Source: Vicinamibacterales bacterium
Lineage (GTDB): Bacteria > Acidobacteriota > Vicinamibacteria > Vicinamibacterales > 2-12-FULL-66-21
Direction: 5' to 3'
Length of the DNA stretch: 41,564 nt
Assembly (NCBI GenBank): GCA_036258055.1
Contig: DATAEK010000013.1
Location: 1-41,564, forward strand
The notes under the pieces were generated by a model. The model saw nothing but the letters and a program-made list of their open reading frames with translations, was not told where the DNA came from and did no database searches. The first letter of the stretch is position 1, and every line of letters starts with the position of its first letter. Positions 21,690-39,632 of this stretch are shown piece by piece. The translations under genes were made by a program, and so were the position numbers.

Positions 21690-23168
21690 CTACTCCACCC
21701 GAATGGTGCGCCATTTACCCTGATGGAATCGCGCGGCGGACAGGACGCAGCGCGTGAGGTGGCCGAGCAGGATCGCTGTCCAGACCGTCTGCGGCTGAAG
21801 CCGTCCCATTGCTTGCATCGTGAACAGGATCCCGAGCGGCACGACAATCTGCGACGCGAGGGTGATGTAGAGCGGGCTTCGAGTGTCTCCGGTTCCCTGG
21901 AGCCCACCCGTGTAGGTCAGCGCGACGGTAATGAAGAGTCCTGACAGGCTGAGGAAACGAAGCAGCTGCGTGCCCAGTGCGACGACGGTGGGATCCTTCA
22001 GGCCGAAGATCGCGAGCAGATACTCAGGGACGATCAGGAACATCGCGCCGACAGTGGCCGCGACACAGAGACCGAACCGCGCGGCGATGTGCACGCCGCG
22101 CATGGCCCGCTCGGGTTTGCCCGCGCCGAGATTCTGGCCGGCGACGGCAGCCGCCGCACCCATGAGACCGACCGACGTCCAGGTGATCAGCGAGAAGAGC
22201 TCGGTGTAGCCCACCGCGTACGCGGCTTGCGCCTCCGCGCTGTGCTCGAGCGAACCGATGAACCGCAGGAGCAGCACGCCCGCGACGTTCATCGCCACAC
22301 CCTGAATCCCCGCAGGCAGGCCGAACCGGAACAGTGACCGGATGATCGTCCAGTCGGGCCGCCAGGCCATGCCCTTCGAGAAGTGCACGACGAGACGGCC
22401 GCGGAAGATCATCCACAGCGCGACCAAGGAGACGATGGTGCTCGCCGTAACCGTGCCGATTGCCGCACCGCGCGTGCCGAACCTCGGGATCGGTCCCCAA
22501 CCCGGAATGAGGATCACGTTGAAGCACATGTTGAGGATCGTCATCCAGATCCCGAGCCGCAGCGGCGTCCGCGCATCGCCGGCCGCACGCAGTGCGCCGC
22601 CGAGCATGAAGAAGAGCAGCATCCCGAGACTGAAGACGAACATCGTTCGCAGAAACGGGAGCGCTTCGGCACGGACGGCGGGTGTGGCGTGCACGAGCTC
22701 GAGCAGCCTCGGCGCCAGTACGTAACCAAGCGGTGCGAGGATGCCGACCGCAAGTACGACCGCCGTCAGGAACGCCTGATAGACCGTGCGGTTGACCTTC
22801 TCCGGCTGGTTGGCCCCCGCGAAACGCGCGACCAGGACACCCATTCCGGTGAAGAGCGAGCTGATGAAGACGATGACGACCAGAAAGATCTGCCAGCTCA
22901 CGCCGATGGCCGCATTGGCGGTGAAGCCGACGTAGTGGCCGACCATCGCGTGATCGATGATCCCCTGCAGTCCGCCAATGGCGTTCTGAAGGACCGTGGG
23001 CCACGCGATCTTCCAGACGGCGCGTGCGATCGGTCCCTCGACGATCGATCGATCCAGACGGCGGGCCGCGGCGCCGGACGCAGCCGCCGTCGCGGCAGGC
23101 GGAATGATCGTTCCCGCGGCTGGCGATGGATCCGCAGCGGGGGATATGGCTGCCGACGACTCGCTCAT
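21690..23168 (-). CDS. MATE-family efflux transporter
   Basis: About 492 aa from the ATG at 23168 (SD AAGGA). 12 predicted TM segments and a MATE-like N-terminus (IARAVWKIAWPTVLQNAIGGLQGIIDHAMVGH). The long 5' extension of the ORF to 23687 overlaps the VOC gene and is rejected. ATGA overlap with the VOC gene stop. Confidence 0.8.
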   Translation of the reverse strand: MSESSAAISPAADPSPAAGTIIPPAATAAASGAAARRLDRSIVEGPIARAVWKIAWPTVLQNAIGGLQGIIDHAMVGHYVGFTANAAIGVSWQIFLVVIVFISSLFTGMGVLVARFAGANQPEKVNRTVYQAFLTAVVLAVGILAPLGYVLAPRLLELVHATPAVRAEALPFLRTMFVFSLGMLLFFMLGGALRAAGDARTPLRLGIWMTILNMCFNVILIPGWGPIPRFGTRGAAIGTVTASTIVSLVALWMIFRGRLVVHFSKGMAWRPDWTIIRSLFRFGLPAGIQGVAMNVAGVLLLRFIGSLEHSAEAQAAYAVGYTELFSLITWTSVGLMGAAAAVAGQNLGAGKPERAMRGVHIAARFGLCVAATVGAMFLIVPEYLLAIFGLKDPTVVALGTQLLRFLSLSGLFITVALTYTGGLQGTGDTRSPLYITLASQIVVPLGILFTMQAMGRLQPQTVWTAILLGHLTRCVLSAARFHQGKWRTIRVE

Positions 23169-24091
23169 CGCAAATCCTTGAGGATGCGCCGCACGTCGGC
23201 ATGAGCGAGGACGACAGCTGGCTGGCGCTGCAGCGCTTCGAAGTAGCGGCGCGCGAACCCGTCGCCGGTCTCCGACGCGGTGAGGAGACGCTCGACCTGT
23301 TCCACGAGCGTTTGCGCATCGGCGGATGTGGCGGGTGCGTCCTGTTCGACGGCCTGATCGATCCGGACGATCAACTCCGAGAGCGCGTGCAGCCAGGCGA
23401 ACCAGGGATCGTTGATCACCAGCTGCAGCAGGCCCGCATTCGATCCGACGCGCCCTCGGTCCATCTCGTACGCCGCGCGCGCATCGTCGAGCAGCACCTT
23501 GTGCAGGTGGAGCAGCCGGCCCCTGAGCGCCCGCAGGCGCTCGCGCTCGGTCTCGGTCATCAGCGCGTAGGCTGGGACGGCCGTTGCAGAAGCTTCGGCC
23601 GGCACTGACGACGCTGCAGCACGGAGCGCATCCAGATCGAGCCGCACCGTCCCCATGTTGAGCGAACCATTCGCACTCCGCGGCCACTCGTCACGCGGAC
23701 GGTCGACGTACAGCTCGAGGCCGTTCTGGTCCGGATCGCGCAGATAGAGCGCTTCGCTGACGCCGTGATCGCTCGCTCCGTCGAGCTGGATCCCCGCGCT
23801 GTCCAATCGCAGCAACGCGTCAGCAAGGGCCGCGCGGTTCGGATAGCGGACTGCGAAGTGGTAGAGACCTGTCGTGCCCGGTGGCGGCGGCGACCCACCC
23901 TGGCTTTCCCAGGTGTTCAGTCCGATGTGATGGTGGTAGCCGCCGGCACTGAGAAAGGCCGCCGAGTTACCCATCCGCTGCATGACCTCGAAGCCCAGCA
24001 CGCCCGAGTAGAACGCGATCGCCCGGTCGAGGTCGGCGACCTTGAGATGCACGTGGCCGATATCCACGTGCGAATCGAGCGGCTTCTGCAT
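23165..24091 (-). CDS. VOC-family (glyoxalase/bleomycin-resistance/dioxygenase fold) protein fused to a C-terminal domain of unknown function
   Basis: The N-terminal ~135 aa carry VOC motifs (HVHLKVADLDRAIAFYSGVLGFEV, HHHIGL, LYLRDPDQNGLELY). The remaining ~170 aa have no recognisable domain. Confidence 0.6.
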   Translation of the reverse strand: MQKPLDSHVDIGHVHLKVADLDRAIAFYSGVLGFEVMQRMGNSAAFLSAGGYHHHIGLNTWESQGGSPPPPGTTGLYHFAVRYPNRAALADALLRLDSAGIQLDGASDHGVSEALYLRDPDQNGLELYVDRPRDEWPRSANGSLNMGTVRLDLDALRAAASSVPAEASATAVPAYALMTETERERLRALRGRLLHLHKVLLDDARAAYEMDRGRVGSNAGLLQLVINDPWFAWLHALSELIVRIDQAVEQDAPATSADAQTLVEQVERLLTASETGDGFARRYFEALQRQPAVVLAHADVRRILKDLR

Positions 24092-24188
24092 AGGCCATCA
24101 TCGCGCACGTTGTAGGGTGGAGATCAAGCGCACCTGCCGGCCTGCGAATGGTGGCGGTTTTGCAACCGCAATCCCCCGGGAGGGAAAG

Positions 24189-24743
24189 GTGGCTGAAGTC
24201 CTCGCGCAGTTCACGGATCCGTTAGTTGGGGAGGATGGCGCGATCTATCTCGCACGCGTCTGCGGCGTGCTCGCGTCCGACGGTTTGTGGCAGGGCTGGA
24301 TCGAGTTCGAACCGGTCGATGGCGGACCAACGCTGCGCTCCGGTCGCGAGACGACGCAACCGAATAGGCAGGACGCACTCTATTGGGCCAGCGGCCTCAC
24401 GCACGTGTACCTCGAAGGAGCGCTGCGACGAGCCTTGAAGCCGCTCGTCAGGCCGATTGAACCGGAGACACCCGTACCGGCGTTCGACGGTCCCGCACCC
24501 GACATCACGCTTCCGCCTCCGGTCGAAAGCGTGCTCAATCCATTCTCGGTCTACCGCAAGGGCGAGGCAGTCCTGCGCGCTCAACTGTCTGCGCTTTCCG
24601 CCTGGCACCTCGTGAATATCCTTCGAGCCTACAACTTGACCGATGTAGACAGCGCCACTTTGAACCACCTCGAAGATCGCGTGCTCGTTGAGATGATCAT
24701 CGCGGCCGTACGGGCGGAGGAGTCGTCGCGATTGCTTCGCTGA
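24189..24743 (+). CDS. Hypothetical protein
   Basis: 184 aa from an in-frame GTG at 24189, preceded by a strong SD (GGGAGGGAAAGG). No recognisable domain. The longer ATG-initiated ORF from 24042 overlaps the VOC gene's 5' end on the other strand. Confidence 0.35.
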   Translation: MAEVLAQFTDPLVGEDGAIYLARVCGVLASDGLWQGWIEFEPVDGGPTLRSGRETTQPNRQDALYWASGLTHVYLEGALRRALKPLVRPIEPETPVPAFDGPAPDITLPPPVESVLNPFSVYRKGEAVLRAQLSALSAWHLVNILRAYNLTDVDSATLNHLEDRVLVEMIIAAVRAEESSRLLR

Positions 24744-25155: not shown

Positions 25156-25465
25156 AGGTTAGCTCCGCAGAAACCCCAACCTTGTGCCCGTTATTCCCGC
25201 GCGTCCTCCCTTTTAGACACGCGATCGCGGGTTTTAGTTACTTGCCGGTGAACATGGTATCGGCGCAAAGCGTCGCTGGCGCGATGGATCGCGCCCGTCG
25301 CGCCGGGAGTGCAGGCCTGAAGCGAGTCCAGGCCTGTCGGCCTGTGCCGGATACGATCACCAGGAGCAGCGGGAAGGCGGTCGCCGCGGCACCTGCCGCG
25401 GCGTCTCCTCCAGCCAACCAAATCGTGCGGTGACCGCTGAACGGGCTGGGCGCCCGTGACGTGAA

Positions 25466-25813
25466 CTACGACGCCGTCGCCAACTTGACCTTCGCGCGCT
25501 CGGTTTCGAGGCGCCCGCGGAAGATCGCCCCTTCAGCCATGCCGACACGCGGCGCGGACATTTCTCCTTCGACCTCGGCGTTGTTGCGCAGCTCGATGCG
25601 CTCCTCCGCCACCAGGCTGCCCTTGAGGGTCCCGGACACGACGATGGCGCGCGCGACGATGTCCGCTGCGAGCTCCGCGCATCCCTCGACGATGACCAGG
25701 TGACCTTCGACATTGATCGTGCCCTCGATGTGGCCGGCGATGACCACGTCTTCCTTCGCGCTGAACTCGCCTTTGATCCGAATCGACGCCCCGAGCTGAG
25801 CCTTCTGTTCCAT
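25466..25813 (-). CDS. Bactofilin (DUF583 beta-helical cytoskeletal protein)
   Basis: ATG at 25813 preceded by SD GGGGAGG. About 115 aa of repetitive beta-helix pattern (IKGEFSAKEDVVIAGHIEGTINVEGHLVIVEGCAELAADIVARAIVVSGTLKGSL). The N-terminal extension in the ORF track is rejected. Confidence 0.7.
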   Translation of the reverse strand: MEQKAQLGASIRIKGEFSAKEDVVIAGHIEGTINVEGHLVIVEGCAELAADIVARAIVVSGTLKGSLVAEERIELRNNAEVEGEMSAPRVGMAEGAIFRGRLETERAKVKLATAS

Positions 25814-26039
25814 GCTGTGGCCTCCCCGACGACAGACAGATGCGCAGCGCATCTCGCAAGTCCCATTCCCGATGACGAAGCTGACAAGTTCACTCCGGAA
25901 ATTGCGCGACTTCACCCGGCTCCAGGAATCGGCGGTAAAAGGCGTGCAACTCCGCCCTGACGATTTCGTGGCTGGATCTCACGTCTGTAATCAACCTCGT
26001 CGCGGCGATATACTCTCGCCGTTCCGGAAGGATTTGGTC

Positions 26040-26870
26040 ATGCGCAGACTGCCCGCCGCCGCGCTCGCCGCGTTCGTCTCAGTTGCCGTGTGCGCGGTTG
26101 TGGCGCAGCAGCCTGCTCCGCCGCCGTCACAGACGACGGCGATTCCCTCAGACGCGGAGATCGAGCAGTTCCTCCGAACGGCGAAGGTCGTCAAGACGCG
26201 AGGGACGTCCAAGGGCATCACTGGATCGCTGCGCGCGACGCTCAGCGACGGCACGCGTACACACGACGCGCAGATCCAGAGGATCGACGAGCGCAAAGCG
26301 CAGTTCGAGGCTGGCAGTGCCACGGAGTTCAACTTCCGCGACAGCTGGGAGTACAACGTTGCGGCCTACCGCCTCGATCGCATGATCGGCCTGAACCTCG
26401 TACCGGTCAGCATCGCCCGGCGCTATGACCTGAAGCAGGCCGCGTTCACCTGGTGGATCGATGACGTGATGATGGACGAGGGGAAGCGGCTGAGCGACAA
26501 AATCCAGCCGCCGCGCCCGCAGGAGTGGAACGAGTACATGCAGCTCGTTCGCGTCTTCGATCAGCTCATTTACAACATGGATCGCAACACCGGCAACCTG
26601 CTCATCACCAAGGACTGGCATGTCTGGGCGATCGATCACACGCGCGCGTTCCGGACACATCCGACGCTGAAAACGCCCGCCAACGTCACTCGCTGCGACC
26701 GCCAGATGCTCGAGCGGATGAAAGAGCTCACCAAAGAGTCGCTGAAGAAGGAGCTGGGCGAGTACCTCACCGACTTCGAAATCGCGGGAGTCCTCGCACG
26801 TCGCGACCTGATCGTCGGGATCATCGAAAAGACAGGACCAGCAGGCGTCTTCGATCGCCGCGCTCGCTGA
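26040..26870 (+). CDS. Secreted protein with PI3K/PI4K-like atypical kinase catalytic-loop signature
   Basis: ATG at 26040 with SD GGAAGGA. Signal peptide present. YNMDRNTGNLLITKDWHVWAIDHTRAF aligns with the PI3/PI4-kinase catalytic loop and DFG-like loop (GDRHNDNIM...HIDFGH) at identical spacing, but with H replaced by N in the DRH triad. Confidence 0.35.
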   Translation: MRRLPAAALAAFVSVAVCAVVAQQPAPPPSQTTAIPSDAEIEQFLRTAKVVKTRGTSKGITGSLRATLSDGTRTHDAQIQRIDERKAQFEAGSATEFNFRDSWEYNVAAYRLDRMIGLNLVPVSIARRYDLKQAAFTWWIDDVMMDEGKRLSDKIQPPRPQEWNEYMQLVRVFDQLIYNMDRNTGNLLITKDWHVWAIDHTRAFRTHPTLKTPANVTRCDRQMLERMKELTKESLKKELGEYLTDFEIAGVLARRDLIVGIIEKTGPAGVFDRRAR

Positions 26871-26891
26871 CCTGTCAACGGAGCTTCCACC

Positions 26892-29177
26892 GTGTCCACC
26901 TTCGTTCGTACTGCCCTTCTGCTCGCCGTCAGCCTCGTTACCGTCGCCTGGCAAGCGGTTCAACTCGTTGACCTGTCACAGCGCGCGCTTGGACGGATGG
27001 ATGGCGAGGTCACCGTGCCGGGCCTGCGAGGGGACGTGCGGGTCCTGCGCGATCGTTGGGGCATCCCGCATATCTACGCGGCCTCGGCGGACGATCTGTT
27101 CTTCGCGCAAGGGTATGTGGCCGCACAGGATCGCCTCTGGCAGATGGAGATCTGGCGTCGCACCGGCGAAGGGCGGCTCGCCGAGATTCTCGGGCCGCAA
27201 GCCGTCGGCCGCGATCGCGTGGCCCGCCTGCTCAAGTATCGCGGCCCGATGGACCAGACGGAGCTCGCGAGTTATCACCCCGAGGGCCGCCGGTTGTTGA
27301 CCGCGTTCATGAACGGCGTCAATGCCTTCATTTCGACGCACGCGGACAACCTGCCGGTTGAATTCCTGTTGACCGGCGTCAAGCCCCAGCCGTGGACCCT
27401 CGAAACGCTGACGCTTCGACAGGTCACCTTCGGCGATGCCACGAGCGAACTGCAGCTCGCGCGAAGTGTCGCGGCGCTTGGCGCGGAGGAAGCCAACCGG
27501 CGGCGCAACCCCGATCCCTGGGACGCACTGCAGGTGCCTGCCGGACTCGACGTGTCGGCAATCACCGAGGAAGTCGTCGCGGCGACACGCGCGGAAACCG
27601 GGCGACTCCCTGTTCCGGAGATTCTGCCGACGTATCGATCGCTCGCCGCGAGGGCCATCGATCAGCGTTCGTCCATGACAGAGCGCGCGACGGCCGACCC
27701 CGAGGCAGTCTTCGAGCCCGGCAGCAACAACTGGGTCGTCAGCGGATCCATGTCCACGACCGGGAAGCCCGTCGTTGCCAACGATCCGCACCGCGAGGTC
27801 ACGCTTCCGTCACTGCGCTACATCTTTCACCTCATCGCACCCGGATGGAATGTGATCGGCGCGTCCGAGCCGCCGTTTGTCGGCATCGCGGTCGGCCACA
27901 ACGATCGGGTGGCATGGGGGCTCACGATCGTCGGAACGGACCAGCACGACGTCTACGTCGAGGAGATCAATCCGGCCGATGCAAATCAGGTTCGATGGCG
28001 AGGCGGTTGGGAACCCTTACGCATCGTCCGCGAACAAATTGCGGTGAAGGGCCAGGCGCCCCAGAGTGTCGAGCTGAAGTTCAGCCGTCACGGTCCGATC
28101 TTCTACGAGGACCGGGCCCGGCACCGCGCCTACGCCTTGCGGTCAGCGCTGCTCGAGCCGGGAACAGGCGCATATCTCGCGGGGCTGCGCCTAAGCCAGG
28201 CTCGCGACTGCCGGCAGTTCCTCGACTCTGCGATGTACTGGAAGTCGCCGTCGGAGAACCTGATTTGCGGTGACGTAGATGGCAACATCTCGTGGCAGGC
28301 CTCAGCGCTGACGCCAACGCGCAAGGGATGGGTCGGCCGGCTGCCGGTCCCGGGCGGCGGTGACTTCGAGTGGCAGGGCTTCCGGCAGGATCTGCCGCGG
28401 GAGATCAACCCGGATCGCGGATTCATCGCCACGGCCAATCACAACATCCAGCCCAAGGGCTACGCGCCGCCGATCATGTTCAAGAACGCGGATGTGCGGT
28501 TCGAAAGGATCACGCGACTGTTGCAGTTGCTGACGCCGGGGCGCAAGTACTCGCTGGAGGATCATCAGCGGATGCAGCACGACGCCTTCTCTCTGCGCGC
28601 CGCGGCGGACCTGCCGCGCTTCAAAGGCTGGACGGCGTCGGATCCCGACGTCGAACGGGGGCGGGCGATGCTCGCGAACTGGGACGGCGTGTATCAGCGC
28701 GACAGTGCGGCGGCGGCGCTGTATGAAACGTGGCGCCAGGTTACCGGACGTCGCGCTACCGATGACACGGCGAGCACAACAGACGGCCAAGCGAGTCCAG
28801 AGGACAGCTTGAGCCAGGCGGTCACACGGTTGAGGGGTAGCCAGGGACGCGATTGGAGCGCGTGGCGTTGGGGACGCATGCACACGCGAACGTTCCCTCA
28901 TCCGTTCGTGCGCGCGTTCGATCTTCCCACCGTCGAGCGTGCGGGCGGCGCGGGAACCGTCGCCGCCGACGGTGCGACGTATCGCGAGATTCTCGACGTG
29001 TCGAACTGGGATAACTCGCTCGGCTCGAACGTTCCGGGCCAATCGGGGCAACCCGGGAGTCCGTACTACGGCAATCTCCTGCCACTCTGGACGGACAACA
29101 AGTACTTCCCGCTCGCATTCTCGAAAGCGGCGGTCGATGGAAACGCCGAGCATCGGCTCACGCTGAAGAGTCGGTAG
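26892..29177 (+). CDS. Penicillin acylase family protein (Ntn-hydrolase, S45; family includes AHL acylases)
   Basis: 761 aa with a signal peptide. The conserved N-terminal blocks RDRWGIPHIYA, DLFFAQGYVAAQDRLWQME and NGVNAF, plus the SNNW nucleophile region (GSNNWVVSG), are all present. The start is a GTG at 26892. Confidence 0.85.
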   Translation: MSTFVRTALLLAVSLVTVAWQAVQLVDLSQRALGRMDGEVTVPGLRGDVRVLRDRWGIPHIYAASADDLFFAQGYVAAQDRLWQMEIWRRTGEGRLAEILGPQAVGRDRVARLLKYRGPMDQTELASYHPEGRRLLTAFMNGVNAFISTHADNLPVEFLLTGVKPQPWTLETLTLRQVTFGDATSELQLARSVAALGAEEANRRRNPDPWDALQVPAGLDVSAITEEVVAATRAETGRLPVPEILPTYRSLAARAIDQRSSMTERATADPEAVFEPGSNNWVVSGSMSTTGKPVVANDPHREVTLPSLRYIFHLIAPGWNVIGASEPPFVGIAVGHNDRVAWGLTIVGTDQHDVYVEEINPADANQVRWRGGWEPLRIVREQIAVKGQAPQSVELKFSRHGPIFYEDRARHRAYALRSALLEPGTGAYLAGLRLSQARDCRQFLDSAMYWKSPSENLICGDVDGNISWQASALTPTRKGWVGRLPVPGGGDFEWQGFRQDLPREINPDRGFIATANHNIQPKGYAPPIMFKNADVRFERITRLLQLLTPGRKYSLEDHQRMQHDAFSLRAAADLPRFKGWTASDPDVERGRAMLANWDGVYQRDSAAAALYETWRQVTGRRATDDTASTTDGQASPEDSLSQAVTRLRGSQGRDWSAWRWGRMHTRTFPHPFVRAFDLPTVERAGGAGTVAADGATYREILDVSNWDNSLGSNVPGQSGQPGSPYYGNLLPLWTDNKYFPLAFSKAAVDGNAEHRLTLKSR

Positions 29178-29194
29178 GAAGTCGGCAGTCGCGG

Positions 29195-29232
29195 TCACGT
29201 AGCGTTCGGCTTCAGCCGGACCGCGCCTTTCG
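29195..29232. repeat. Copy 2 of the GTCACGTNGCGTYCGGCTTCAGCCGGACC repeat/hairpin element
   Basis: Shares gtcacgt.gcgt.cggcttcagccggacc with 2717-2753. Lies immediately 3' of the acylase gene. Confidence 0.5.
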
Positions 29233-29269
29233 GACCGGTTGTTGCTTCTTTCGGCGCAGGAGGCAACAC

Positions 29270-29689
29270 ATGCCGGAGCAAGAAACGTTGAGGCGGGCTC
29301 GACAGGACAAGCGTGAGGGAAAATCTCCGTCCACGCAGGCTGGTGAATTCGTCCACGAGGAGATCGAACACATCCGTGAGGGCAAGCACGGTGCGCGCTC
29401 GACGAAGCAGGCCATCGCGATCGGGTTGTCGAAGGCGCGGCGAGCGGGAGTCAAGCTCCCTCCACCGGCCAAGGGACAGTCCTCGGCGGCCACGAGAAGG
29501 CGAGCGGCACAGGATCTGCGCGCCGGGCACTCGGGATCTCACAAGACGTCGTCACGCCGATCGCGAGCGACCATGAAGGCGCTGAAACGTGAGGGACATG
29601 GCGCAGCGTCACACTCGGCGCTCAGCCGTCAGGCTCGCACCGCCGCGCGGAAGCGGAGCACCACTCGCCGATCGATGAAGAAGCGCTAG
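29270..29689 (+). CDS. Small conserved basic protein (resembles DUF6496-type proteins as recalled)
   Basis: 139 aa. SD AGGAGG 7 nt upstream of the ATG. A highly basic Arg/Lys-rich C-terminal half with a conserved-looking N-terminus (GEFVHEEIEHIREGKHGARSTKQAIAIGLSKARRAGV). Confidence 0.4.
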   Translation: MPEQETLRRARQDKREGKSPSTQAGEFVHEEIEHIREGKHGARSTKQAIAIGLSKARRAGVKLPPPAKGQSSAATRRRAAQDLRAGHSGSHKTSSRRSRATMKALKREGHGAASHSALSRQARTAARKRSTTRRSMKKR

Positions 29690-29717
29690 CGAAGACCAGT
29701 CCGCTTGCGCCTCGGCG

Positions 29718-30620
29718 ATGCGCACGCGCACAATGCGGCGCATGACATTCCCGCTGCGCTCGCACGCCACGATCGCCATCGCCCTTCTGCTGACAGTGGG
29801 CGTCGTTCAGCCAGGCTCACGGATACGGGCGCAGACGTCCGAGAAGCCGCCGGTCTACGACGCGTTTGCCATCCGCTTCGGCATCCTGCCGGCGTTAGCG
29901 GTGTCCGGGCTGGTGGCCGGCACCGAGGCCGGACGCAGGCTCGACATCCCGGTCATGGTCTGGCTGCTCAAGGGTTCGAACGGGCGCAACGTGCTCGTGG
30001 ACTCCGGCTTCTACCGGCAGAAATTCGTCGAACGGTGGAAGGTCCGCGACTTCAGATCGCCTGCCGATGCGGTCGCCGCCGCGGGAGTACGGCCGGACGA
30101 GATTACCGACATCATCATCAGCCATGCGCACTGGGACCACGTCGACGGCGCGGATCTCTTCCCAAAGGCCACGATCTGGATCCAGCGCGACGAGTATCAG
30201 TACTACACCGGAGAAGCGTGGCATGCGCGCAACACGCACGGCGGGATCGACGACGAGGATATGGTGGCGCTGCTGAAGATCAACACGCAGGGGCGGCTGC
30301 GCTTCGTGAACGGCGACGATCAGGAACCGATTCCCGGCATCCGCTGCTACACGGGCGGCCGTCACACGTTTGCGTCGCAGTATGCGTCGGTGAAGCTGGC
30401 GGCGGGAACCGCGGTGTTCACGAGCGACAACGTCTACCTGTACGAGAACTTAGAGAAGCACGTGCCGATTGCCCAAACGTTCGACGCGGCGAGCAACCTG
30501 AAAGCCCAGGATCGGATCAGGTCGCTCGCCACGCAGCCCGCGCTCATCGTGCCCGGCCACGATCCAGCGGTGTTCGAACGGTTCACCAGGGTCGCGGACG
30601 GGATCGTGCACATCCCGTAG
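29718..30620 (+). CDS. Secreted MBL-fold metallo-hydrolase (N-acyl-homoserine-lactonase-like)
   Basis: Signal peptide. HAHWDH (HxHxDH) zinc motif plus downstream His/Asp (CYTGGRHTF, VPGHD). Size and motif spacing resemble AiiA/AidC-type lactonases. The exact start is uncertain (ATGs at 29718, 29733 and 29742). Confidence 0.7.
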   Translation: MRTRTMRRMTFPLRSHATIAIALLLTVGVVQPGSRIRAQTSEKPPVYDAFAIRFGILPALAVSGLVAGTEAGRRLDIPVMVWLLKGSNGRNVLVDSGFYRQKFVERWKVRDFRSPADAVAAAGVRPDEITDIIISHAHWDHVDGADLFPKATIWIQRDEYQYYTGEAWHARNTHGGIDDEDMVALLKINTQGRLRFVNGDDQEPIPGIRCYTGGRHTFASQYASVKLAAGTAVFTSDNVYLYENLEKHVPIAQTFDAASNLKAQDRIRSLATQPALIVPGHDPAVFERFTRVADGIVHIP

Positions 30621-30643
30621 AGTCTGCCGTCAGGCGGACCTAC

Positions 30644-30663
30644 GCGTCCGGCTAAATCCGGAC
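30644..30663. repeat. Hairpin GTCCGG-CTAAAT-CCGGAC between convergent genes (related to the 2729 and 29210 elements)
   Basis: Perfect 6-bp stem read from the sequence. It lies between the MBL gene stop (30620) and the flotillin stop (30678), and could act as a bidirectional terminator. Confidence 0.45.
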
Positions 30664-30677
30664 ACGACAACAGGGTG

Positions 30678-32492
30678 TTACGTCCGCGGTTCCGCATCCT
30701 TCTGCGGACCCGCCAGCATCTTCGCGATCATCGCGTTCACCAGCCCGCCACCGCCATCGCCGCTGACGGAGATCTCGGGCACGAGCTTCACGCGGTTCTC
30801 GCCCAGAATCGTCGCGAGCTGGATCGCGGTGTAGCCGGTACCACCCACAGCGTCGATACCGAGCTTGTAGGCCTCAGCCTTCGCCGCACCCACCGCACGA
30901 ACCGCGGCGGCTTCCGCCTCACCGTTCACGCGAACGGCCGCGGCCTGGCCCTCCGCCCTGAGCCGCAGCGCGTTGCCTTCACCGCGCGCCGATTCCGCCG
31001 TCGCCAGCGCGTTCTGCTGCGAAATCCGCACGGCCTGCTCGGACCGCACGACGTCGGCCTGCAGGTTGGCCACGGCCGTCTCACGCTCGAGCGCCTGACG
31101 CTTCACCTGCGCCTCACGCTGAACGTCGTAGGTGAGCTCGAGCTCCTGCGCGATCTTGCGGTCCGTCTGCGTCTTCATCAGCTCCGCCGGCGGCGCGATG
31201 TCGCCGATCAGCGTATCGATGCACTCGACGTCGTAAGACTCGATCGCCTTCTTGATGTTCTCGAATGCCTCTGTTTGCCGCTCCGACCGCGCGGTCAGGA
31301 ACTCCAACACCGTGACCTGCTGCGCCGAGTTGCGGAAGTAGTTGCCGACGGTCGGCTGCAGCACGTGATCGACGAGGTTCTGCATCGAGCCCACCCGCGA
31401 GATCACCCGCGGCGCGTTCTTCATACCGATGTGGATGATCTGCGACACGTCCATGCTGAACGAGAAGCCGTCCTTCGACCGCACGAGGATCGACGACAGC
31501 CGTTCATCGTAGTGATGCGCCTCGGTCCGCTGCGCCCAGTTCAGCACGATGTTGGTCGTCGGCACGAGCTCGACCTTCATGACGCGGGTGTTGACCGGAT
31601 GCTTACCGGGCAGGAGCGGCTCCACCCACACACCCTTGCGCCCGCGCTCCACGAGGTCACCATGCGTGAACGATTCGCCGGACACGTCGAGGTGCTCGCG
31701 TCCGACGTAGCTGACGACGACGCCTACGTAACCGATGGGGATCTCGGTCAGCGGCACCGGCTCGACTCGCACGAACCACGGGTTGAGGTTCCACGATCCC
31801 GACAACAAGACGTCCTCCTGCAGACCGCGGCAGCCCGAGGCCTCGATGAACGCCTGCCCGCGCTGGAAACTCTCGTGACCCTCGATGCTCGGGCCCGCGA
31901 GATCACCAGACGCGATCGGACGGCCGTCCAGCACCGTGACGATGCCGACGCGATCCGTGGGCATCTGATACACCTCCAGATCCTCTTCCGTCATGCCGTG
32001 CTCCTCGGCGGTTGCGGCCGTGACGATCTCGAAGAGCGACGGATTGATGCGGTAGGTACCCGCCGTCAGGAACGCGAGCTGTCGGCCCCGTTCCCCCCCG
32101 TCGCGCAGGAACGCCTCGGCATCCTGAAAGTTGTCGCACGCGACCTGACGTCCGAGCACACGCTCCGGCGGAATCGCCGCGCCGTCGGCGGCGACAACGA
32201 GCGCAATCTGCCCCGGCTCGACCACGACCACCGGTACCTTCACGATCCGATACCGCCCGCGCCAGTACCCGAAATGCCACCCGGGCGGCAGCATCCGCGC
32301 CTGGTAGCCCGCCTCTCCATTGACGGCGATGATCCGTCCCGACGCGAGCGGCGGACCGAACCGTTTCACGACCAGCCCCGATTGGTCCGCACGAATGATC
32401 CACATCCCCCACAGCGAAACGACCAGCGCGAGCGCCACGAGCGCGCCGATCGAGACCACGAGTAACCCACCCTCCAGGAGCGACATCGGCAT
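30678..32492 (-). CDS. Flotillin-family SPFH protein (long, YqiK/FloT-like)
   Basis: About 605 aa from the ATG at 32492 (MPMSLLEGG...). N-terminal TM helix, an SPFH core, and a very long Ala/Glu/Gln-rich coiled-coil C-terminal half (EA-repeat region) typical of flotillins. Confidence 0.8.
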   Translation of the reverse strand: MPMSLLEGGLLVVSIGALVALALVVSLWGMWIIRADQSGLVVKRFGPPLASGRIIAVNGEAGYQARMLPPGWHFGYWRGRYRIVKVPVVVVEPGQIALVVAADGAAIPPERVLGRQVACDNFQDAEAFLRDGGERGRQLAFLTAGTYRINPSLFEIVTAATAEEHGMTEEDLEVYQMPTDRVGIVTVLDGRPIASGDLAGPSIEGHESFQRGQAFIEASGCRGLQEDVLLSGSWNLNPWFVRVEPVPLTEIPIGYVGVVVSYVGREHLDVSGESFTHGDLVERGRKGVWVEPLLPGKHPVNTRVMKVELVPTTNIVLNWAQRTEAHHYDERLSSILVRSKDGFSFSMDVSQIIHIGMKNAPRVISRVGSMQNLVDHVLQPTVGNYFRNSAQQVTVLEFLTARSERQTEAFENIKKAIESYDVECIDTLIGDIAPPAELMKTQTDRKIAQELELTYDVQREAQVKRQALERETAVANLQADVVRSEQAVRISQQNALATAESARGEGNALRLRAEGQAAAVRVNGEAEAAAVRAVGAAKAEAYKLGIDAVGGTGYTAIQLATILGENRVKLVPEISVSGDGGGGLVNAMIAKMLAGPQKDAEPRT

Positions 32493-32660
32493 CTGCCTTT
32501 CTATGAAGGCCGCCCGGCTCTCGCACCGGCCTCCGGCGGCCGTTGGGGTGGTCGTGCATGGGCTGGACCAGCCAGATTGCTGAGAAAACGGCGCCATTTC
32601 GGCAACGACTGCGCTCTACCGTCATTTCATTCATGTTCGGGCGGTGATACATTCACGATC

Positions 32661-35971: not shown

Positions 35972-36182
35972 AGCCAGCGGCGCGAGCGAACAGCCTTGAG
36001 CCGCGGCGAGCGCGCAGGCGCGAGCTGCCCTGTTTGGGGGTGGGCCCCAGACAGTCTGAGAAGAAGAGCAGTCAAAGCGCCTGCGGCCGGCGCGAGGCTC
36101 GCAGTCGCCGGGCGCCGCGCGTGGGGGTGGGGCCCTACGCGCACTAAGGATGCGGGGGTGGGGCCCGCAGCAAACTGAGAAA
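35972..36182. repeat. ~200-bp non-coding repeat element, copy B (inverted relative to copy A at 16548-16748)
   Basis: The reverse complement aligns with copy A along its whole length (three GGGGGTGGGGCCC boxes: gtttgggggtgggcccc, gcgtgggggtggggccc, gcgggggtggggccc). Intergenic, between the pepF stop and the next gene. Confidence 0.8.
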
Positions 36183-36265
36183 TGCCGACGGGGCACCCCG
36201 GCTTGCGGACTCGATCGCTATATTGCGGAGCCGGAACTCGGTTACACTGTAGGCTCCTGACAGTC

Positions 36266-37351
36266 ATGAGGCGGACGGTCCTGCCGGCAGTCGCAGCGCT
36301 CCTGTTCGTGTCCCTGACGACCCCCGTCCGGGCGCAGACCCCCAGAACCTCGGCGATCACGACGCCGCCGTTCGAGTCGTTTCTCGAACAGCTCCGGCAG
36401 CAGGCAGGGATTCCGGGCCTGTCCGCGGCCATCGTGCAGAATGGCGAGATCGTCTGGGAGCGCGGTTTCGGCTTCCAGAATCAGGAGCTCCGGGCGCGGG
36501 CAACGCCCGACACGCCGTATCCGATTGGGGACCTGAGCGAGACCATCGCGGCGACCCTCCTCCTGCAATGCGTCGAGCAACGCATCCTGGATCTCGATGT
36601 GTCCGCCCGCCGCTACGGCCTGTCGATGCCGGAGGCGGATGCCACGCTGCGCAACGTTCTGAGCCACACATCGGCCGGGACTCCGGGCGACATCTTCCGC
36701 TACGACCCCGATCGCTTCGCGCAACTGGGAACGGCCGTCGAGTTCTGTGCGCCGCAGCCGTACAGGAAGAGTGTTGCGCATCGCATCCTCGATCGCCTCG
36801 CGATGAAGGACTCGGTCCCCGGGCGCGACATCCAGGGTCTGCAGAACACGCCGGACGGACTCTTCGACGCGGCGGCGCTCGAACGATACGCGCGCGTCCT
36901 CGAGCGGATCGCGGTACCGTACAAGTTGGACAAGAAGGGCCGCAGCGTCCGTTCCGACACGCCGATCGACGATCACCTCACCGCGTCGACCGGCGTCATC
37001 TCCACCGTGCGCGACCTCGCGCGGTTCGATGCCGCGCTGGACTCGACGGTGCTCCTCAACGACGACACGGTGGCGATGGCGTGGTCGAACGCCGTGACGC
37101 GCGATCGGACGACGGCGCTGCCGATGGGCCTCGGCTGGTTCGTGCAGCGCTATGGCGCCGACCCGGTGGTCTGGCACTTCGGCCTCGTGCCAAACGCCTA
37201 CTCGTCGCTCATCATCAAGCTCCCGGCCCGTCACCTGACGCTCGTTCTGCTCGCGAACAGCGACGGGCTGACCGCGCCATTCCAGATGCCTCAGGGGGAA
37301 GTCACGCGTTCGCTCTTCGCGGCGCTGTTCCTCCGCATGTTCGCCGGGTGA
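36266..37351 (+). CDS. Beta-lactamase-fold (class C/esterase-like) secreted protein, catalytic SxxK apparently not conserved
   Basis: Signal peptide and a beta-lactamase-family N-terminal block (GIPGLSAAIVQNGEIVWERGFG...YPIGDLSETIAATLL). In the position expected for G-S-x-S-K the sequence reads G-D-L-S-E, i.e. Ser->Asp and Lys->Glu. Confidence 0.55.
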   Translation: MRRTVLPAVAALLFVSLTTPVRAQTPRTSAITTPPFESFLEQLRQQAGIPGLSAAIVQNGEIVWERGFGFQNQELRARATPDTPYPIGDLSETIAATLLLQCVEQRILDLDVSARRYGLSMPEADATLRNVLSHTSAGTPGDIFRYDPDRFAQLGTAVEFCAPQPYRKSVAHRILDRLAMKDSVPGRDIQGLQNTPDGLFDAAALERYARVLERIAVPYKLDKKGRSVRSDTPIDDHLTASTGVISTVRDLARFDAALDSTVLLNDDTVAMAWSNAVTRDRTTALPMGLGWFVQRYGADPVVWHFGLVPNAYSSLIIKLPARHLTLVLLANSDGLTAPFQMPQGEVTRSLFAALFLRMFAG

Positions 37352-37361
37352 GGTCCCCTCG

Positions 37362-37976
37362 GTGGTGACCTGGCGCGCTTCGCTGGCCCTCTGCAGCCTG
37401 TTCATTCTGCTGTTCGGCGCGCCCGCGCGAGCCGAGTGGCAGTTCGCGCCCTTCATCGGCTTCACGTTCGGCGGCGACACCACCTTGCTGGACCTCGACG
37501 CCGGTGCAGACAAGAACCATTGGAACTTCGGCGGCACCGCGACGCTCCTCGGCAAAGGCCCGATCGGTGTCGAAGGTCTCTTCTCCTACACGCCTGGATT
37601 CTTCGAATCGGACGAGGCGGTCGCGCCGCCAAACACGTCACTCGTGACATCGAGTCACGTCTACGCGTTGATGGGCAACATCGTCCTCACCACGCCGGCG
37701 AGATGGAGCGAATACGGACTTCGGCCGTACGTCTCTGGCGGTGTCGGCCTGCTGCACGCCAGTCAGAGGCAGACGCAGAATGTGTTCCCGATCAGCAGCA
37801 ATCTCTTCGGATTCGACGTGGGCGGCGGCGCGGTCGGGTTCATCACGAATCGCACGGGCTTGCGGTTCGATCTCCGGTACTACAGCACCTTGCGCCGGGA
37901 CGAAGAAGCGTTCGCGTTCGGGCGCGTTCGACTCAGTTATTGGAATGCAGGCGTCGGTGTCGTCCTGAGGTATTGA
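37362..37976 (+). CDS. Outer-membrane beta-barrel protein (OmpA-like TM domain / OmpW-like)
   Basis: GTG start 11 nt after the upstream stop. Signal peptide. Alternating hydrophobic beta-strand pattern with Gly/aromatic girdle residues and a C-terminal aromatic (VGVVLRY). Confidence 0.45.
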   Translation: MVTWRASLALCSLFILLFGAPARAEWQFAPFIGFTFGGDTTLLDLDAGADKNHWNFGGTATLLGKGPIGVEGLFSYTPGFFESDEAVAPPNTSLVTSSHVYALMGNIVLTTPARWSEYGLRPYVSGGVGLLHASQRQTQNVFPISSNLFGFDVGGGAVGFITNRTGLRFDLRYYSTLRRDEEAFAFGRVRLSYWNAGVGVVLRY

Positions 37977-38526: not shown

Positions 38527-39624
38527 TCAGCGTCGAGCTTGTTGTTTTCCCGCGAGCTGAGGAAGAGCTGCCGGTGGGGGTTCTCCACTCTCGAGACGCT
38601 CACGCAAACCAATGAGGATCCCTGGCGCCTCGTTCCGCAGTCGCCGCTGCAGAATCGATCGCACGAGACCGCCGAAGAATCCCCCGACGACGTCCACGTC
38701 CGAGCGATTGAGGTAGGTCAAGTATCGTTTCGACGGGCCATCGCGGACAATGGCCGTGATGCCGAGCGACGCGTCCATGTAATGTGTGGCGAAGATCTGC
38801 TTGCTCGCAATGACGACCTCGGGTAGTCCTTCACGATCGGGACGCACGATGCTGACCTGAGTGGCGGAGATGACCGTCTTGCGAGAGAACAGCTCCTTCG
38901 ACCAGTAGATGAACGACTCGATCGCGGGCGACTGCGAGGGGGGACGCCGGAGGTGATCGGCGAGTTGCGGAAGCTGCCGCGTCAGGAAATCGCTGCGCTG
39001 CAGGATGCCGGCGAAGGCATGCGCCGGCGAGTGCGCTGCCGACACGTCGCGCACCTCCGCAAAGCCATCGTGACCCTTTTCACCGTAGGTCTTGATGCGC
39101 TCGAAGACGATTTGACGGAACGCACGTTCAACCGCGGGCTTCCAGGCCGTACCGTGCTGTTGAATGACCGCCTGCAGACTTTCGATCTCGACGGCGGTCA
39201 GCTTGAGCGCGCACTTACCCGGCCGGCAGTTTCTGATGTCGTCGAGGTCGCCGGATTCGACGGTCAGGCTGTCGAAATCCTCGAGGCGGATGGGCGCCGA
39301 GACGCGACGGATCGCGAGCACGTACGAAGTCTTCTTCAGCGCTTCGATGCGCCGGATCCAGGCCACCAATCGATCCCCCCCGACATTCACCGGCACCGCC
39401 GCGAACACCGCGACGTCGTGTTCCTGCGCCGGCACGACTCGCGCGATGTTGCCGCCGCTGTCGAGACGCTTGCGCTCTTCGGCAGTGAGGGAAACCGCGG
39501 GTTCGAAAAACGCGAAGGGATCCGTGACCCGAGCGTGCAGCAGTGTGGCCTGGATCACCAGCAAGGCAAACAGGCCGCTCCGCATCGCCAGCCAAGATAC
39601 CTTAAGAAGCGGGTGACGGCCCAT
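38527..39624 (-). CDS. Secreted hypothetical protein
   Basis: About 365 aa from the ATG at 39624, or from 39585 with a clean signal peptide (MRSGLFALLVIQATLLHA). The 574-aa ORF extending to 40251 overlaps the neighbouring gene and is rejected. No recognised domain. Confidence 0.4.
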   Translation of the reverse strand: MGRHPLLKVSWLAMRSGLFALLVIQATLLHARVTDPFAFFEPAVSLTAEERKRLDSGGNIARVVPAQEHDVAVFAAVPVNVGGDRLVAWIRRIEALKKTSYVLAIRRVSAPIRLEDFDSLTVESGDLDDIRNCRPGKCALKLTAVEIESLQAVIQQHGTAWKPAVERAFRQIVFERIKTYGEKGHDGFAEVRDVSAAHSPAHAFAGILQRSDFLTRQLPQLADHLRRPPSQSPAIESFIYWSKELFSRKTVISATQVSIVRPDREGLPEVVIASKQIFATHYMDASLGITAIVRDGPSKRYLTYLNRSDVDVVGGFFGGLVRSILQRRLRNEAPGILIGLRERLESGEPPPAALPQLAGKQQARR

Positions 39625-39632
39625 GGCAACGG

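What the first reader, a model, noticed from the sequence alone, without database searches (positions are those of the whole stretch)
26892..30620. Secreted Ntn-hydrolase (penicillin/AHL-acylase family) adjacent to a secreted MBL-fold lactonase-like hydrolase: possible quorum-quenching pair
The penicillin-acylase family includes the AHL acylases (PvdQ, AhlM, AiiD), and HxHxDH MBL-fold enzymes include the AHL lactonases (AiiA, AidC). Here both are encoded 540 bp apart on the same strand, both with signal peptides, and separated only by a small basic protein gene. Two mechanistically distinct acyl-homoserine-lactone-degrading activities side by side would be a notable signal-interference locus. 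A beta-lactam or other amide/lactone substrate is equally possible.
Basis: inference. Interest (0 to 1): 0.55.

Follow-up and report, generated by a model that had tools for sequence, protein, structure and literature searches.

The report
Exported acylase beside AiiA-like lactonase
A soil acidobacterium (order Vicinamibacterales) encodes an exported penicillin-acylase-family enzyme next to an exported zinc lactonase that resembles known quorum-signal-degrading lactonases, but the acylase is not of the signal-degrading type and the two genes are neighbours in only some related species, so this is an ordinary pair of hydrolase genes and not a dedicated signal-interference unit.

Summary
26892-29177 (+) encodes a full-length penicillin-amidase (S45 Ntn-hydrolase) precursor. 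29270-29689 (+) encodes a 139-aa basic DUF6496 protein. 29718-30620 (+) encodes an HxHxDH MBL-fold protein. Both hydrolases have signal-peptide-like N-termini.

The MBL protein belongs to the lactonase branch. Its closest solved relative is titled an AHL lactonase (8X78, Pseudomonas poae), followed by AiiA and GcL. All eight AiiA catalytic residues are invariant in 76 homologues. It falls far below every curated lactonase equivalog cut-off.

The acylase is closest to D-succinylase (441 bits, about 40% identity), then N176-type glutaryl-7-ACA acylase and penicillin G acylase. PvdQ scores 29 bits. It carries beta-Arg24 where PvdQ and MacQ have Phe and Trp.

Adjacency is lineage-specific. The lactonase follows the acylase in 5 of 19 Vicinamibacterales species loci and in 0 of 51 loci elsewhere. 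The lactonase orthologue more often sits beside purine-catabolism genes with no acylase. No luxI or luxR domain occurs in the window.

Public annotation already names close relatives "penicillin acylase family" and "N-acyl homoserine lactonase family". Low interest; no substrate has been tested.

The parts
26040..26870 (+). Exported kinase-fold protein (KINL). The ORF opens at 25812, but the likely start is Met at 26040. It ends 21 bp upstream of the acylase.
   Evidence: It gives only weak PI3_PI4_kinase and HipA_2 matches and a SCO1664-family match of 51 bits against a cut-off of 172. The DRNTGN and IDH motifs and a signal-peptide-like N-terminus are conserved in 9/9 homologues. It lies directly upstream of the acylase in 7 species loci and directly downstream in an eighth (L050).
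26892..29177 (+). Precursor of an S45 Ntn-hydrolase (penicillin-amidase family), 761 aa, from the D-succinylase-like clade.
   Evidence: PF01804 matches at E 1e-178 over its full length. The best PDB match is D-succinylase 7EBY/7EA4 at 441 bits, with about 40% identity. PvdQ scores 29 bits in the PDB search and 46.5 bits on its NCBIfam model against a cut-off of 950.
26892..26963 (+). Signal-peptide-like N-terminus of the acylase (MSTFVRTALLLAVSLVTVAWQA...). The end coordinate is approximate.
   Evidence: The 10-aa hydropathy maximum is 2.8 at residue 9. An equivalent segment is present in 114/120 homologues. No dedicated predictor was run.
27723..27725 (+). Codon of Ser278, the predicted N-terminal nucleophile exposed by self-cleavage at Gly277|Ser278 (EPG|SNNW).
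   Evidence: Ser278 aligns with beta-Ser1 of D-succinylase (S282) and of PGA, GCA and PvdQ chains that start at this residue. It is Ser in 69/70 homologues.
27786..27794 (+). Pro299-His300-Arg301, equivalent to beta-P22/H23/R24, which lines the acyl pocket.
   Evidence: D-succinylase (P303/H304/R305) and 4HSR have the same PHR motif. PvdQ has F24, MacQ has W24 and E. coli PGA has F24 (Table 1 of PMC11241749). Arg is found in 58/70 homologues.
29270..29689 (+). Small basic DUF6496 protein, 139 aa, with no signal peptide. It is probably unrelated to the two hydrolases.
   Evidence: DUF6496 scores 31.6 bits against a cut-off of 24. An AGGAGG Shine-Dalgarno precedes it, and it has 36 K+R. It is not found between the acylase and the MBL gene in any other locus; one partial copy lies downstream of the MBL gene in L087.
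29718..30620 (+). Exported di-zinc MBL-fold lactonase-like hydrolase, 300 aa, from the AiiA / GcL / P. poae-lactonase branch.
   Evidence: PF00753 matches. The best NCBIfam models are AiiA (67.7 bits), AttM, AhlS, 4-pyridoxolactonase and AidB, all far below their cut-offs. The top PDB match by sequence is 8X78 at 90 bits, then AiiA. The AF2 model has pLDDT 81.5. The Foldseek top hit is 8X78, titled 'N-Acyl Homoserine Lactone Lactonase from Pseudomonas poae', at TM 0.76-0.80.
30123..30140 (+). HAHWDH motif (H136, H138, D140, H141). The further ligands are H216 (30363), D237 (30426) and H281 (30558), plus Y240 (30435).
   Evidence: These residues align with AiiA H104, H106, D108, H109, H169, D191, H235 and Y194. 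All are invariant in 76/76 homologues.
30621..30677 (.). Convergent intergenic spacer between the MBL gene and the minus-strand SPFH gene. It contains two short hairpins: GTCTGCC-GTCA-GGCGGAC and GTCCGG-CTAAAT-CCGGAC.
   Evidence: The hairpins were read directly from the sequence. The consensus terminator scan did not call them.

Best explanation
Two separately acting exported hydrolases lie side by side because of lineage-specific gene order in Vicinamibacterales. They are not a dedicated two-enzyme system.

(1) The acylase is made as a precursor and exported by a Sec-type signal peptide. It cuts itself between Gly277 and Ser278 to give an alpha/beta heterodimer. Ser278's free amino group and hydroxyl then hydrolyse amide bonds, which is the standard S45 Ntn mechanism (inferred from family membership). 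Its pocket carries His300-Arg301, as in D-succinylase and N176-type glutaryl-7-ACA acylase. Its most likely substrates are therefore amides with short, polar or carboxylate-bearing acyl groups, such as N-succinyl- or glutaryl-type amino acids, peptides or beta-lactam-like compounds. They are unlikely to be long fatty-acyl homoserine lactones. Its probable role is periplasmic scavenging or detoxification (inferred).

(2) The MBL protein is an exported di-zinc lactonase of the AiiA/GcL/P. poae branch. A hydroxide bridging the two metals, which are held by H136/H138/H216 and D140/H141/H281 with D237 bridging, attacks the lactone carbonyl, and Tyr240 stabilises the intermediate as in AiiA (inferred by homology). 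Acyl-homoserine lactones are the best-supported candidate substrates, but other gamma/delta-lactones are possible.

(3) The DUF6496 gene between them is an unrelated cytoplasmic basic protein.
For: The family and residue evidence is listed under parts.

The acylase similarity ranking is D-succinylase 441 bits, then 4HSR at 158 (beta) + 101 (alpha), then PGA at about 160-167, then class I GCA at about 80, then PvdQ at 29.

The two genes occur independently of each other. The acylase occupies a fixed backbone position (MoCo-dehydrogenase < Zn-peptidase < MATE < glyoxalase < ... acylase >) in essentially all Vicinamibacterales-like species loci. The MBL gene follows it in only 5/19 of those loci and in 0/51 loci of other classes and phyla. 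Sister species differ: L007 has the MBL gene and L009 does not, and L101 has it and L006 does not. In the MBL-centred set, the acylase is upstream in 9-10 of about 72 loci. At least 27 loci instead place the orthologous MBL gene (70-79% identity) between an amidohydrolase / allantoicase-OHCU decarboxylase / Urate_ox_N block and a GFO_IDH_MocA oxidoreductase. All catalytic residues are invariant in both contexts.

The spacer gene varies: DUF6496 here, DUF1697 in L033, none in L007, L086, L098 and L101. No luxI or luxR domains occur in the window.
Against: No substrate has been tested for either enzyme. The Arg301 argument rests on one structural-alignment table, and two other D-succinylase pocket residues differ here (R350 to I346, Y352 to G348). 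S45 enzymes are promiscuous, and Kluyvera penicillin G acylase hydrolyses AHLs (PMC5474475). In several genomes the two genes are in tandem on one strand with gaps of only about 50-125 bp (L007, L086, L098, L101, L105, L116, L128), which fits co-transcription. The adjacency is spread over both sub-clades of the Vicinamibacterales acylase tree, so it may be ancestral and retained in some lineages. In the window no terminator or promoter was detected between the four same-strand genes, so an operon cannot be excluded.
Confidence: 0.55

Rival explanations
1. Both exported enzymes act on acyl-homoserine lactones, in parallel or in sequence. The lactonase opens the ring and the acylase then removes the acyl chain, which makes inactivation irreversible.
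For: The MBL protein sits in the AHL-lactonase branch with a complete AiiA catalytic set. Both proteins look exported. Tandem same-strand arrangements with short gaps occur in about 10 related contigs. An AiiA-like AHL lactonase, QlcA, has been recovered from DNA attributed to Acidobacteria (PMC3794736). Some PGA-type acylases hydrolyse AHLs (PMC5474475).
Against: The acylase is far from the AHL-acylase clade: PvdQ scores 29 bits in the PDB search and 46.5 against 950 on its NCBIfam model. It has Arg at beta-24 instead of the Phe/Trp of PvdQ/MacQ. Adjacency is absent in 14/19 related species and in 51/51 more distant loci. The lactonase orthologue is conserved without the acylase next to it. 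No luxI or luxR occurs in the 41.5-kb window.
Confidence: 0.15
2. Neither enzyme has a signalling role. Both are general periplasmic scavenging hydrolases of an oligotrophic soil bacterium. The MBL protein acts on non-AHL lactones, for example plant-, fungus- or sugar-derived lactones.
For: The MBL protein scores 5-8 times below every curated AHL-lactonase equivalog cut-off, and 4-pyridoxolactonase scores about as well as the AHL lactonases. Dihydrocoumarin-hydrolase and methyl-parathion-hydrolase relatives are also structural neighbours. In most lineages the MBL gene is followed by a GFO_IDH_MocA oxidoreductase, a family that produces sugar lactones. Neighbouring genes encode many exported peptidases and hydrolases.
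Against: The closest solved relatives are all labelled AHL or quorum-quenching lactonases. The GFO_IDH_MocA neighbour has no signal peptide while the MBL protein does, so the two would work in different compartments.
Confidence: 0.2
3. The locus is for beta-lactam or other antibiotic inactivation. The penicillin-acylase-family enzyme, the MBL protein, a PF00144 beta-lactamase-family protein, a MATE efflux pump and a glyoxalase/bleomycin-resistance-fold protein would together form a resistance neighbourhood.
For: These families are all in the window. MATE < glyoxalase < acylase > is a conserved order. The acylase is related to glutaryl-7-ACA and penicillin G acylases.
Against: The MBL protein is not a beta-lactamase-type MBL: subclass B3 scores 17 bits against a cut-off of 240, with matches limited to the HxHxDH motif, and its fold neighbours are lactonases. 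The PF00144 gene lies 5.5 kb away, beyond unrelated genes. The conserved order looks like vertically inherited backbone synteny that also includes housekeeping genes.
Confidence: 0.07

Closest known systems
D-succinylase (DSA) of Cupriavidus sp. P4-10-C, PDB 7EA4/7EBY (S45 Ntn-hydrolase acting on N-succinyl-D-amino acids)
   Same: It is the best solved relative of the acylase: 441 bits, alignment over residues 39-623 and 692-759, about 40% identity. It shares the G|SNNW nucleophile site and the beta-P22/H23/R24 (PHR) motif.
   Different: At 40% identity function cannot be transferred. The D-succinylase pocket residues beta-R350 and Y352 are Ile346 and Gly348 here, and the alpha-subunit pocket region cannot be aligned reliably. 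The precursor here is about 60 residues shorter.
AHL acylases of the aculeacin-A-acylase/PvdQ group (PvdQ, MacQ, AhlM, AiiD, QuiP)
   Same: They share the Pfam family (PF01804), the exported self-processing precursor and the Ser nucleophile.
   Different: Similarity is only marginal: PvdQ beta chain 29 bits, PvdQ equivalog model 46.5 against a cut-off of 950 over residues 264-422 only, and MacQ not among the 60 best PDB matches. Beta-24 is Arg here, where PvdQ has Phe and MacQ has Trp.
AHL lactonase from Pseudomonas poae (PDB 8X78) and AiiA of Bacillus thuringiensis (PDB 2A7M, 3DHA)
   Same: These are the best sequence matches (90 bits and about 45-50 bits) and fold matches (TM 0.76-0.80 and about 0.65-0.8) of the MBL protein. 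The HxHxDH motif, His169, Asp191, His235 and Tyr194 equivalents are all present.
   Different: Identity in the structural alignment is only about 24-25%. The protein is far below the AiiA equivalog cut-off (67.7 against 375). It has a signal peptide, whereas AiiA is cytoplasmic (my own knowledge). I found no paper documenting the activity of 8X78.
QlcA, an AiiA-like AHL lactonase from a soil metagenome clone attributed to Acidobacteria
   Same: It has the same enzyme class and a similar taxonomic attribution, and it has shown activity on C6-C10 HSL (PMC3794736).
Genomes carrying both AHL-lactonase and AHL-acylase homologues (Deinococcus radiodurans, Hyphomonas neptunium, Photorhabdus luminescens; Rhodococcus erythropolis W2)
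   Same: Both enzyme types co-occur in one organism (PMC3106361).
   Different: That survey listed Acidobacteria as lactonase-only (apart from one Solibacter usitatus sequence in its acylase tree) and did not report adjacency. Here the genes are adjacent, but the acylase is not of the AHL type.

Membership tests
S45 Ntn-hydrolase / penicillin amidase family (PF01804) | Full-length match to the family profile above the curated cut-off | tested here: met
   596.9 bits against a cut-off of 21.3, covering profile positions 1-674 of 675.
S45 Ntn-hydrolase / penicillin amidase family (PF01804) | Ser nucleophile at the start of the beta chain, preceded by Gly (self-cleavage site) | tested here: met
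   Gly277|Ser278 aligns with residue 1 of the PGA, GCA and PvdQ beta chains and with D-succinylase S282. It is Ser in 69/70 homologues. The cleavage itself was not observed.
AHL acylase (PvdQ / aculeacin-A-acylase group) | Match to the curated PvdQ equivalog model | tested here: not met
   NF051460 scores 46.5 bits against a cut-off of 950, and the match is partial.
AHL acylase (PvdQ / aculeacin-A-acylase group) | Closest similarity to characterised AHL acylases rather than to other S45 enzymes | tested here: not met
   PvdQ scores 29 bits, against 441 for D-succinylase, about 259 for 4HSR (alpha + beta) and about 165 for PGA.
AHL acylase (PvdQ / aculeacin-A-acylase group) | Hydrophobic residue at beta-24 lining a fatty-acyl pocket | tested here: not met
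   The residue here is Arg301. PvdQ has F24 and MacQ has W24 (PMC11241749 Table 1).
AHL acylase (any group) | Release of homoserine lactone from AHLs | not testable with these tools
   This needs an enzyme assay.
D-succinylase | Conservation of the active-site residues listed for 7EA4 | tested here: inconclusive
   S282, P303, H304, R305 and T349 are conserved. S337 becomes A, I338 becomes V, R350 becomes I and Y352 becomes G. Identity is about 40%.
AiiA-type (MBL-fold) AHL lactonase | HxHxDH motif plus His169, Asp191 and His235 metal ligands and Tyr194 | tested here: met
   H136, H138, D140, H141, H216, D237, H281 and Y240 are present. All are invariant in 76/76 homologues.
AiiA-type (MBL-fold) AHL lactonase | Nearest solved folds are AHL lactonases | tested here: met
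   Foldseek top hits are 8X78 (E 1.6e-21, TM 0.76/0.80), then GcL, AiiA, AaL, LrsL, AhlX, AiiB and AidC. The model has pLDDT 81.5.
AiiA-type (MBL-fold) AHL lactonase | Score above a curated equivalog cut-off (AiiA, AttM, AhlS, AidB, YtnP) | tested here: not met
   The scores are 67.7/375, 53.8/390, 50.7/475, 45.5/360 and 23.4/425. 4-Pyridoxolactonase scores 46.7/325.
AiiA-type (MBL-fold) AHL lactonase | Hydrolysis of the AHL lactone ring | not testable with these tools
   This needs an enzyme assay.
Subclass B3 metallo-beta-lactamase | Match to the curated B3 model | tested here: not met
   NF033105 scores 17 bits against a cut-off of 240, with only the HxHxDH stretch aligned.
Conserved two-gene module (operon) of acylase + lactonase | Adjacency conserved across relatives of either gene | tested here: not met
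   The MBL gene follows the acylase in 5/19 Vicinamibacterales species loci and 0/51 other loci. The acylase is upstream in 9-10 of about 72 MBL-centred loci.

The most novel reading that the evidence does not exclude
In a subset of Vicinamibacterales, an exported AiiA-like lactonase and an exported D-succinylase-like acylase form a co-transcribed tandem that destroys acyl-homoserine lactones in two steps. The lactonase opens the ring and the acylase then deacylates the acyl-homoserine. That product carries a free carboxylate, which the Arg301 pocket or the leaving-group site could recognise. This would make signal inactivation irreversible, because ring opening alone can reverse at acid pH.
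Probability: 0.08. Interest if true: 0.5.

Novelty: new member of a known kind. Interest (0 to 1): 0.2.

Why it matters
If the lactonase is active on AHLs, it would add exported quorum-quenching capacity to Vicinamibacterales, an abundant and almost uncultured group of soil Acidobacteriota, and it would be a candidate enzyme for biocontrol. The acylase belongs to a large uncharacterised clade (thousands of homologues in Acidobacteriota and Gemmatimonadota) whose only studied relative is an industrial D-succinylase, so its natural substrate is an open but modest question. As it stands, the locus does not change what is known. Close relatives of both genes already carry these family names in public annotation, and the pairing is not a conserved system.

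Tried and rejected
(1) Beta-lactamase reading of the MBL protein. I rejected it because B3 models match only the HxHxDH motif and the fold neighbours are lactonases.

(2) Conserved operon. I tested this with 72 acylase-centred and 80 MBL-centred loci and rejected it as a general feature.

(3) Separate acylase-linked MBL paralogue. The MBL tree shows that genomic context follows lineage. Identities are similar (70-80%) and the catalytic residues are invariant in both contexts. I therefore treat these as orthologues in different gene orders, although only NJ trees without support values were made.

(4) luxI/luxR search. I scanned 41 window ORFs against Pfam, the predicted gene set plus a few overlapping alternative ORFs, and found no Autoind_synth or Autoind_bind domain. 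The rest of the genome is not available.

(5) Promoter/terminator scan of 25400-31000. It gave nothing above the shuffled expectation, so it says nothing about operon structure.

(6) Rfam and tRNA scans of the window found nothing.

(7) Literature. There were no hits for '8X78' and no paper on the P. poae lactonase. Nothing links Vicinamibacter to quorum quenching beyond community surveys.

(8) Full phylogeny against characterised AHL acylases and lactonases. This was not possible because their sequences could not be imported. I used bit-score ranking against PDB chains and NCBIfam equivalog models instead.

(9) PDB sequence search for the kinase-like neighbour found no relative.

(10) Tat export of the MBL protein. 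I considered it because of the 'MRRMTF' sequence. The motif is not canonical and is not conserved in homologues, so Sec export is assumed.

Full report
**Observation**

The window is high-GC DNA (about 65%). Its proteins have their closest relatives in metagenome-assembled genomes of Vicinamibacterales, phylum Acidobacteriota.

- 26892-29177 (+), 761 aa, matches Pfam Penicil_amidase over the whole profile (E 1e-178).
- 29270-29689 (+), 139 aa, is strongly basic (36 K+R against 11 D+E) and has an AGGAGG ribosome-binding site. It matches DUF6496 just above the cut-off.
- 29718-30620 (+), 300 aa, matches Lactamase_B and carries HAHWDH at residues 136-141.

The acylase stop and the MBL start are 540 bp apart. 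Both hydrolases begin with a charged, then hydrophobic, then AxA-like segment. Such a segment recurs in 114/120 and 113/120 homologues although the N-termini are otherwise unconserved. Export is therefore well supported, although no dedicated predictor was available.

**The acylase**

Against all PDB chains the best match is D-succinylase of Cupriavidus sp. P4-10-C (7EBY/7EA4), at 441 bits over residues 39-623 and 692-759. Identity is about 40%.

The next matches are the N176-type glutaryl-7-ACA acylase 4HSR (158 bits for the beta chain, 101 for the alpha chain), penicillin G acylases (about 160-167), and class I glutaryl acylases (about 80). The AHL acylase PvdQ comes last at 29 bits. MacQ is not among the 60 matches listed. 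The NCBIfam PvdQ equivalog model scores 46.5 bits against a cut-off of 950 and covers only residues 264-422.

The self-cleavage site and nucleophile are present (EPG|S278NNW) and conserved in 69/70 homologues. Pro299-His300-Arg301 corresponds to beta-P22/H23/R24. In the structure-based active-site table of PMC11241749, only D-succinylase (R305) and 4HSR have Arg at beta-24. PvdQ has Phe, MacQ has Trp and E. coli PGA has Phe.

Both Arg-bearing enzymes act on dicarboxylic acyl groups (succinyl, glutaryl). I therefore infer a polar, carboxylate-accepting acyl pocket rather than a fatty-acyl tunnel. The inference is weak, because D-succinylase R350 and Y352 are Ile346 and Gly348 here. AHL acylases are known in four groups: AAC, PGA, PVA and AmiE. 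A Kluyvera penicillin G acylase hydrolyses AHLs (PMC5474475). Grouping away from PvdQ therefore lowers AHL activity as a possibility but does not exclude it.

**The MBL protein**

Its best curated-model matches are all lactonases: AiiA 67.7 bits, AttM 53.8, AhlS 50.7, 4-pyridoxolactonase 46.7 and AidB 45.5. Each is 5-9 times below its equivalog cut-off. Beta-lactamase B3 models match only the HxHxDH stretch.

By sequence, the best PDB relative is 8X78 (90 bits, E 1e-24), followed by AiiA, GcL, AaL, AhlX and AiiB. An AlphaFold2 model built on 29 homologues (pLDDT 81.5, pTM 0.80) finds 8X78 first by Foldseek (E 1.6e-21, TM 0.76/0.80). That entry is titled 'N-Acyl Homoserine Lactone Lactonase from Pseudomonas poae'. 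The next hits are GcL, AiiA, AaL, LrsL, AhlX, 4-pyridoxolactonase, methyl parathion hydrolase, AiiB and AidC. I found no paper on 8X78.

The residues that align with AiiA H104, H106, D108, H109, H169, D191, Y194 and H235 are H136, H138, D140, H141, H216, D237, Y240 and H281. All eight are invariant in 76/76 homologues. The protein is thus a member of the lactonase branch of the MBL superfamily, in a subfamily of its own. AHLs are the leading candidate substrates, but this is not proven. PGAP already names close relatives 'N-acyl homoserine lactonase family protein', and names the acylase relatives 'penicillin acylase family protein'. An AiiA-like AHL lactonase attributed to Acidobacteria, QlcA, has been shown to be active (PMC3794736).

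**Is it a pair?**

I fetched 72 loci around acylase relatives, one genome per species, and 80 metagenome loci around MBL relatives. I mapped the window's proteins onto them. I also called and clustered 1,209 ORFs to draw gene-order maps, with Pfam labels for the recurrent neighbours.

Vicinamibacterales share this backbone: MoCo-dehydrogenase < Zn-peptidase < MATE < glyoxalase < [orf233 >] [kinase-like >] acylase > [MBL >] ... M3 peptidase >.

- The acylase is at this position in essentially every species.
- The MBL gene follows it within 2 kb in 5 of 19 species with enough flank (L005, L007, L008, L033, L052). It follows in none of 51 loci from Blastocatellia, Thermoanaerobaculia, Gemmatimonadota and others.
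- Sister species differ in having the MBL gene at the site: L007 against L009, and L101 against L006.
- Among MBL-centred loci the acylase is upstream in 9-10 of about 72.
- At least 27 of those loci instead have the MBL orthologue between an amidohydrolase, an allantoicase/OHCU-decarboxylase fusion and a Urate_ox_N protein on one side and a GFO_IDH_MocA oxidoreductase, orf233 and the M3 peptidase on the other.
- In the MBL tree, context follows lineage.
- The gene between the two hydrolases is DUF6496 only in this window. It is DUF1697 in L033 and is absent in the tight tandems (gaps of about 50-125 bp) of L007, L086, L098, L101, L105, L116 and L128.

So the adjacency is real. It may be ancestral to part of the order, and it may be co-transcribed in some genomes. 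But each gene is kept without the other as neighbour, which argues against an obligate two-enzyme system.

None of the 41 window ORFs scanned (the predicted gene set plus a few overlapping alternative ORFs) has a LuxI or LuxR autoinducer domain. The window has no Rfam or tRNA hits. The simple promoter/terminator scan is uninformative.

**Mechanism and verdict**

The explanation I consider most likely (0.55) is two independently acting exported hydrolases.

- The first is a self-processing Ser278 Ntn amidase of the D-succinylase-like clade. It is probably aimed at short polar or carboxylated acyl amides.
- The second is a di-zinc AiiA-like lactonase that may well hydrolyse AHLs.
- An unrelated cytoplasmic DUF6496 gene lies between them.

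What is shown: the families, the residues, the similarity ranking, the predicted fold and the synteny statistics. What is inferred: export, self-cleavage, pocket polarity and substrates.

The acylase groups with D-succinylase, cephalosporin acylases and penicillin G acylases, but the MBL protein groups with lactonases. Close relatives of both genes already carry the correct family names in public annotation, and organisms with both enzyme types are known (PMC3106361). I therefore rate this as a new member of known kinds, with low interest (0.2). Enzyme assays on AHLs, ring-opened acyl-homoserines and succinyl/glutaryl amides would settle it.

Noticed in passing
window 26040-26870 (+) (ORF opens at 25812): An exported kinase-fold protein ends 21 bp upstream of the acylase. 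It gives only remote PI3/PI4-kinase, HipA-like and SCO1664-family matches and has no PDB sequence relative. DRNTGN and IDH catalytic-loop-like motifs and a signal-peptide-like N-terminus are conserved in all 9 homologues. It adjoins the acylase in 8 species loci (upstream in 7, downstream in L050), slightly more often than the MBL gene follows it (5/19). A kinase-like protein outside the cytoplasm is unusual.
   Followed up: partly
L075, L082, L095, L096, L104, L117 and about 20 other MBL-centred loci: In most related contigs the MBL orthologue lies beside a urate/allantoin catabolism block (Urate_ox_N, amidohydrolase, allantoicase fused to OHCU decarboxylase, DUF6986). It is followed on the same strand by a GFO_IDH_MocA oxidoreductase and the orf233 homologue. 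No acylase is present in these loci.
   Followed up: partly
window 24042-24743 (+): orf233 is a conserved protein with no Pfam match. It recurs as a hub of this neighbourhood: upstream of kinase-like/acylase in 7 species loci and about 1 kb downstream of the MBL gene in about 22 metagenome loci. Its true start is probably near residue 40.
   Followed up: no
window 1283-2679 (-), 8754-9800 (-), 30678-32597 (-): There are three SPFH/Band-7 genes within 41.5 kb. One is paired with NfeD, one is a Band_7_1 protein with a C-terminal HTH_17 domain, and one is a 639-aa SPFH protein convergent with the MBL gene.
   Followed up: no
window 36182-37976 (+): A PF00144 serine beta-lactamase-family protein is followed by an outer-membrane beta-barrel protein. 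This pair recurs in related loci (L003, L074).
   Followed up: no
window 21690-24091 (-): A MATE efflux ORF (the longest ORF overlaps the next gene, so the real start is further in) and a 308-aa glyoxalase/bleomycin-resistance-fold protein with an uncharacterised C-terminal half lie here. Both are conserved immediately upstream of, and divergent from, the acylase side of the backbone in nearly all Vicinamibacterales loci.
   Followed up: no
window 3548-5548 (-), 38527-40697 (-): Long ORFs (666 aa, and 574/354 aa) have coding-like GC3 but no Pfam match at E <= 0.001.
   Followed up: no
window 26955-26957: The closest database protein (P0001, JGI metagenome) differs from the window's acylase at residue 22 (Ala here, Pro there). 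The window therefore comes from a very close but not identical assembly.
   Followed up: no
P0007, P0021, P0024 (acylase homologues): Some homologues have a lipobox-like Cys at the end of the signal sequence (for example LAFAGCS, LVALTACA). This suggests lipoprotein anchoring in part of the family. The window's protein has no such Cys.
   Followed up: no
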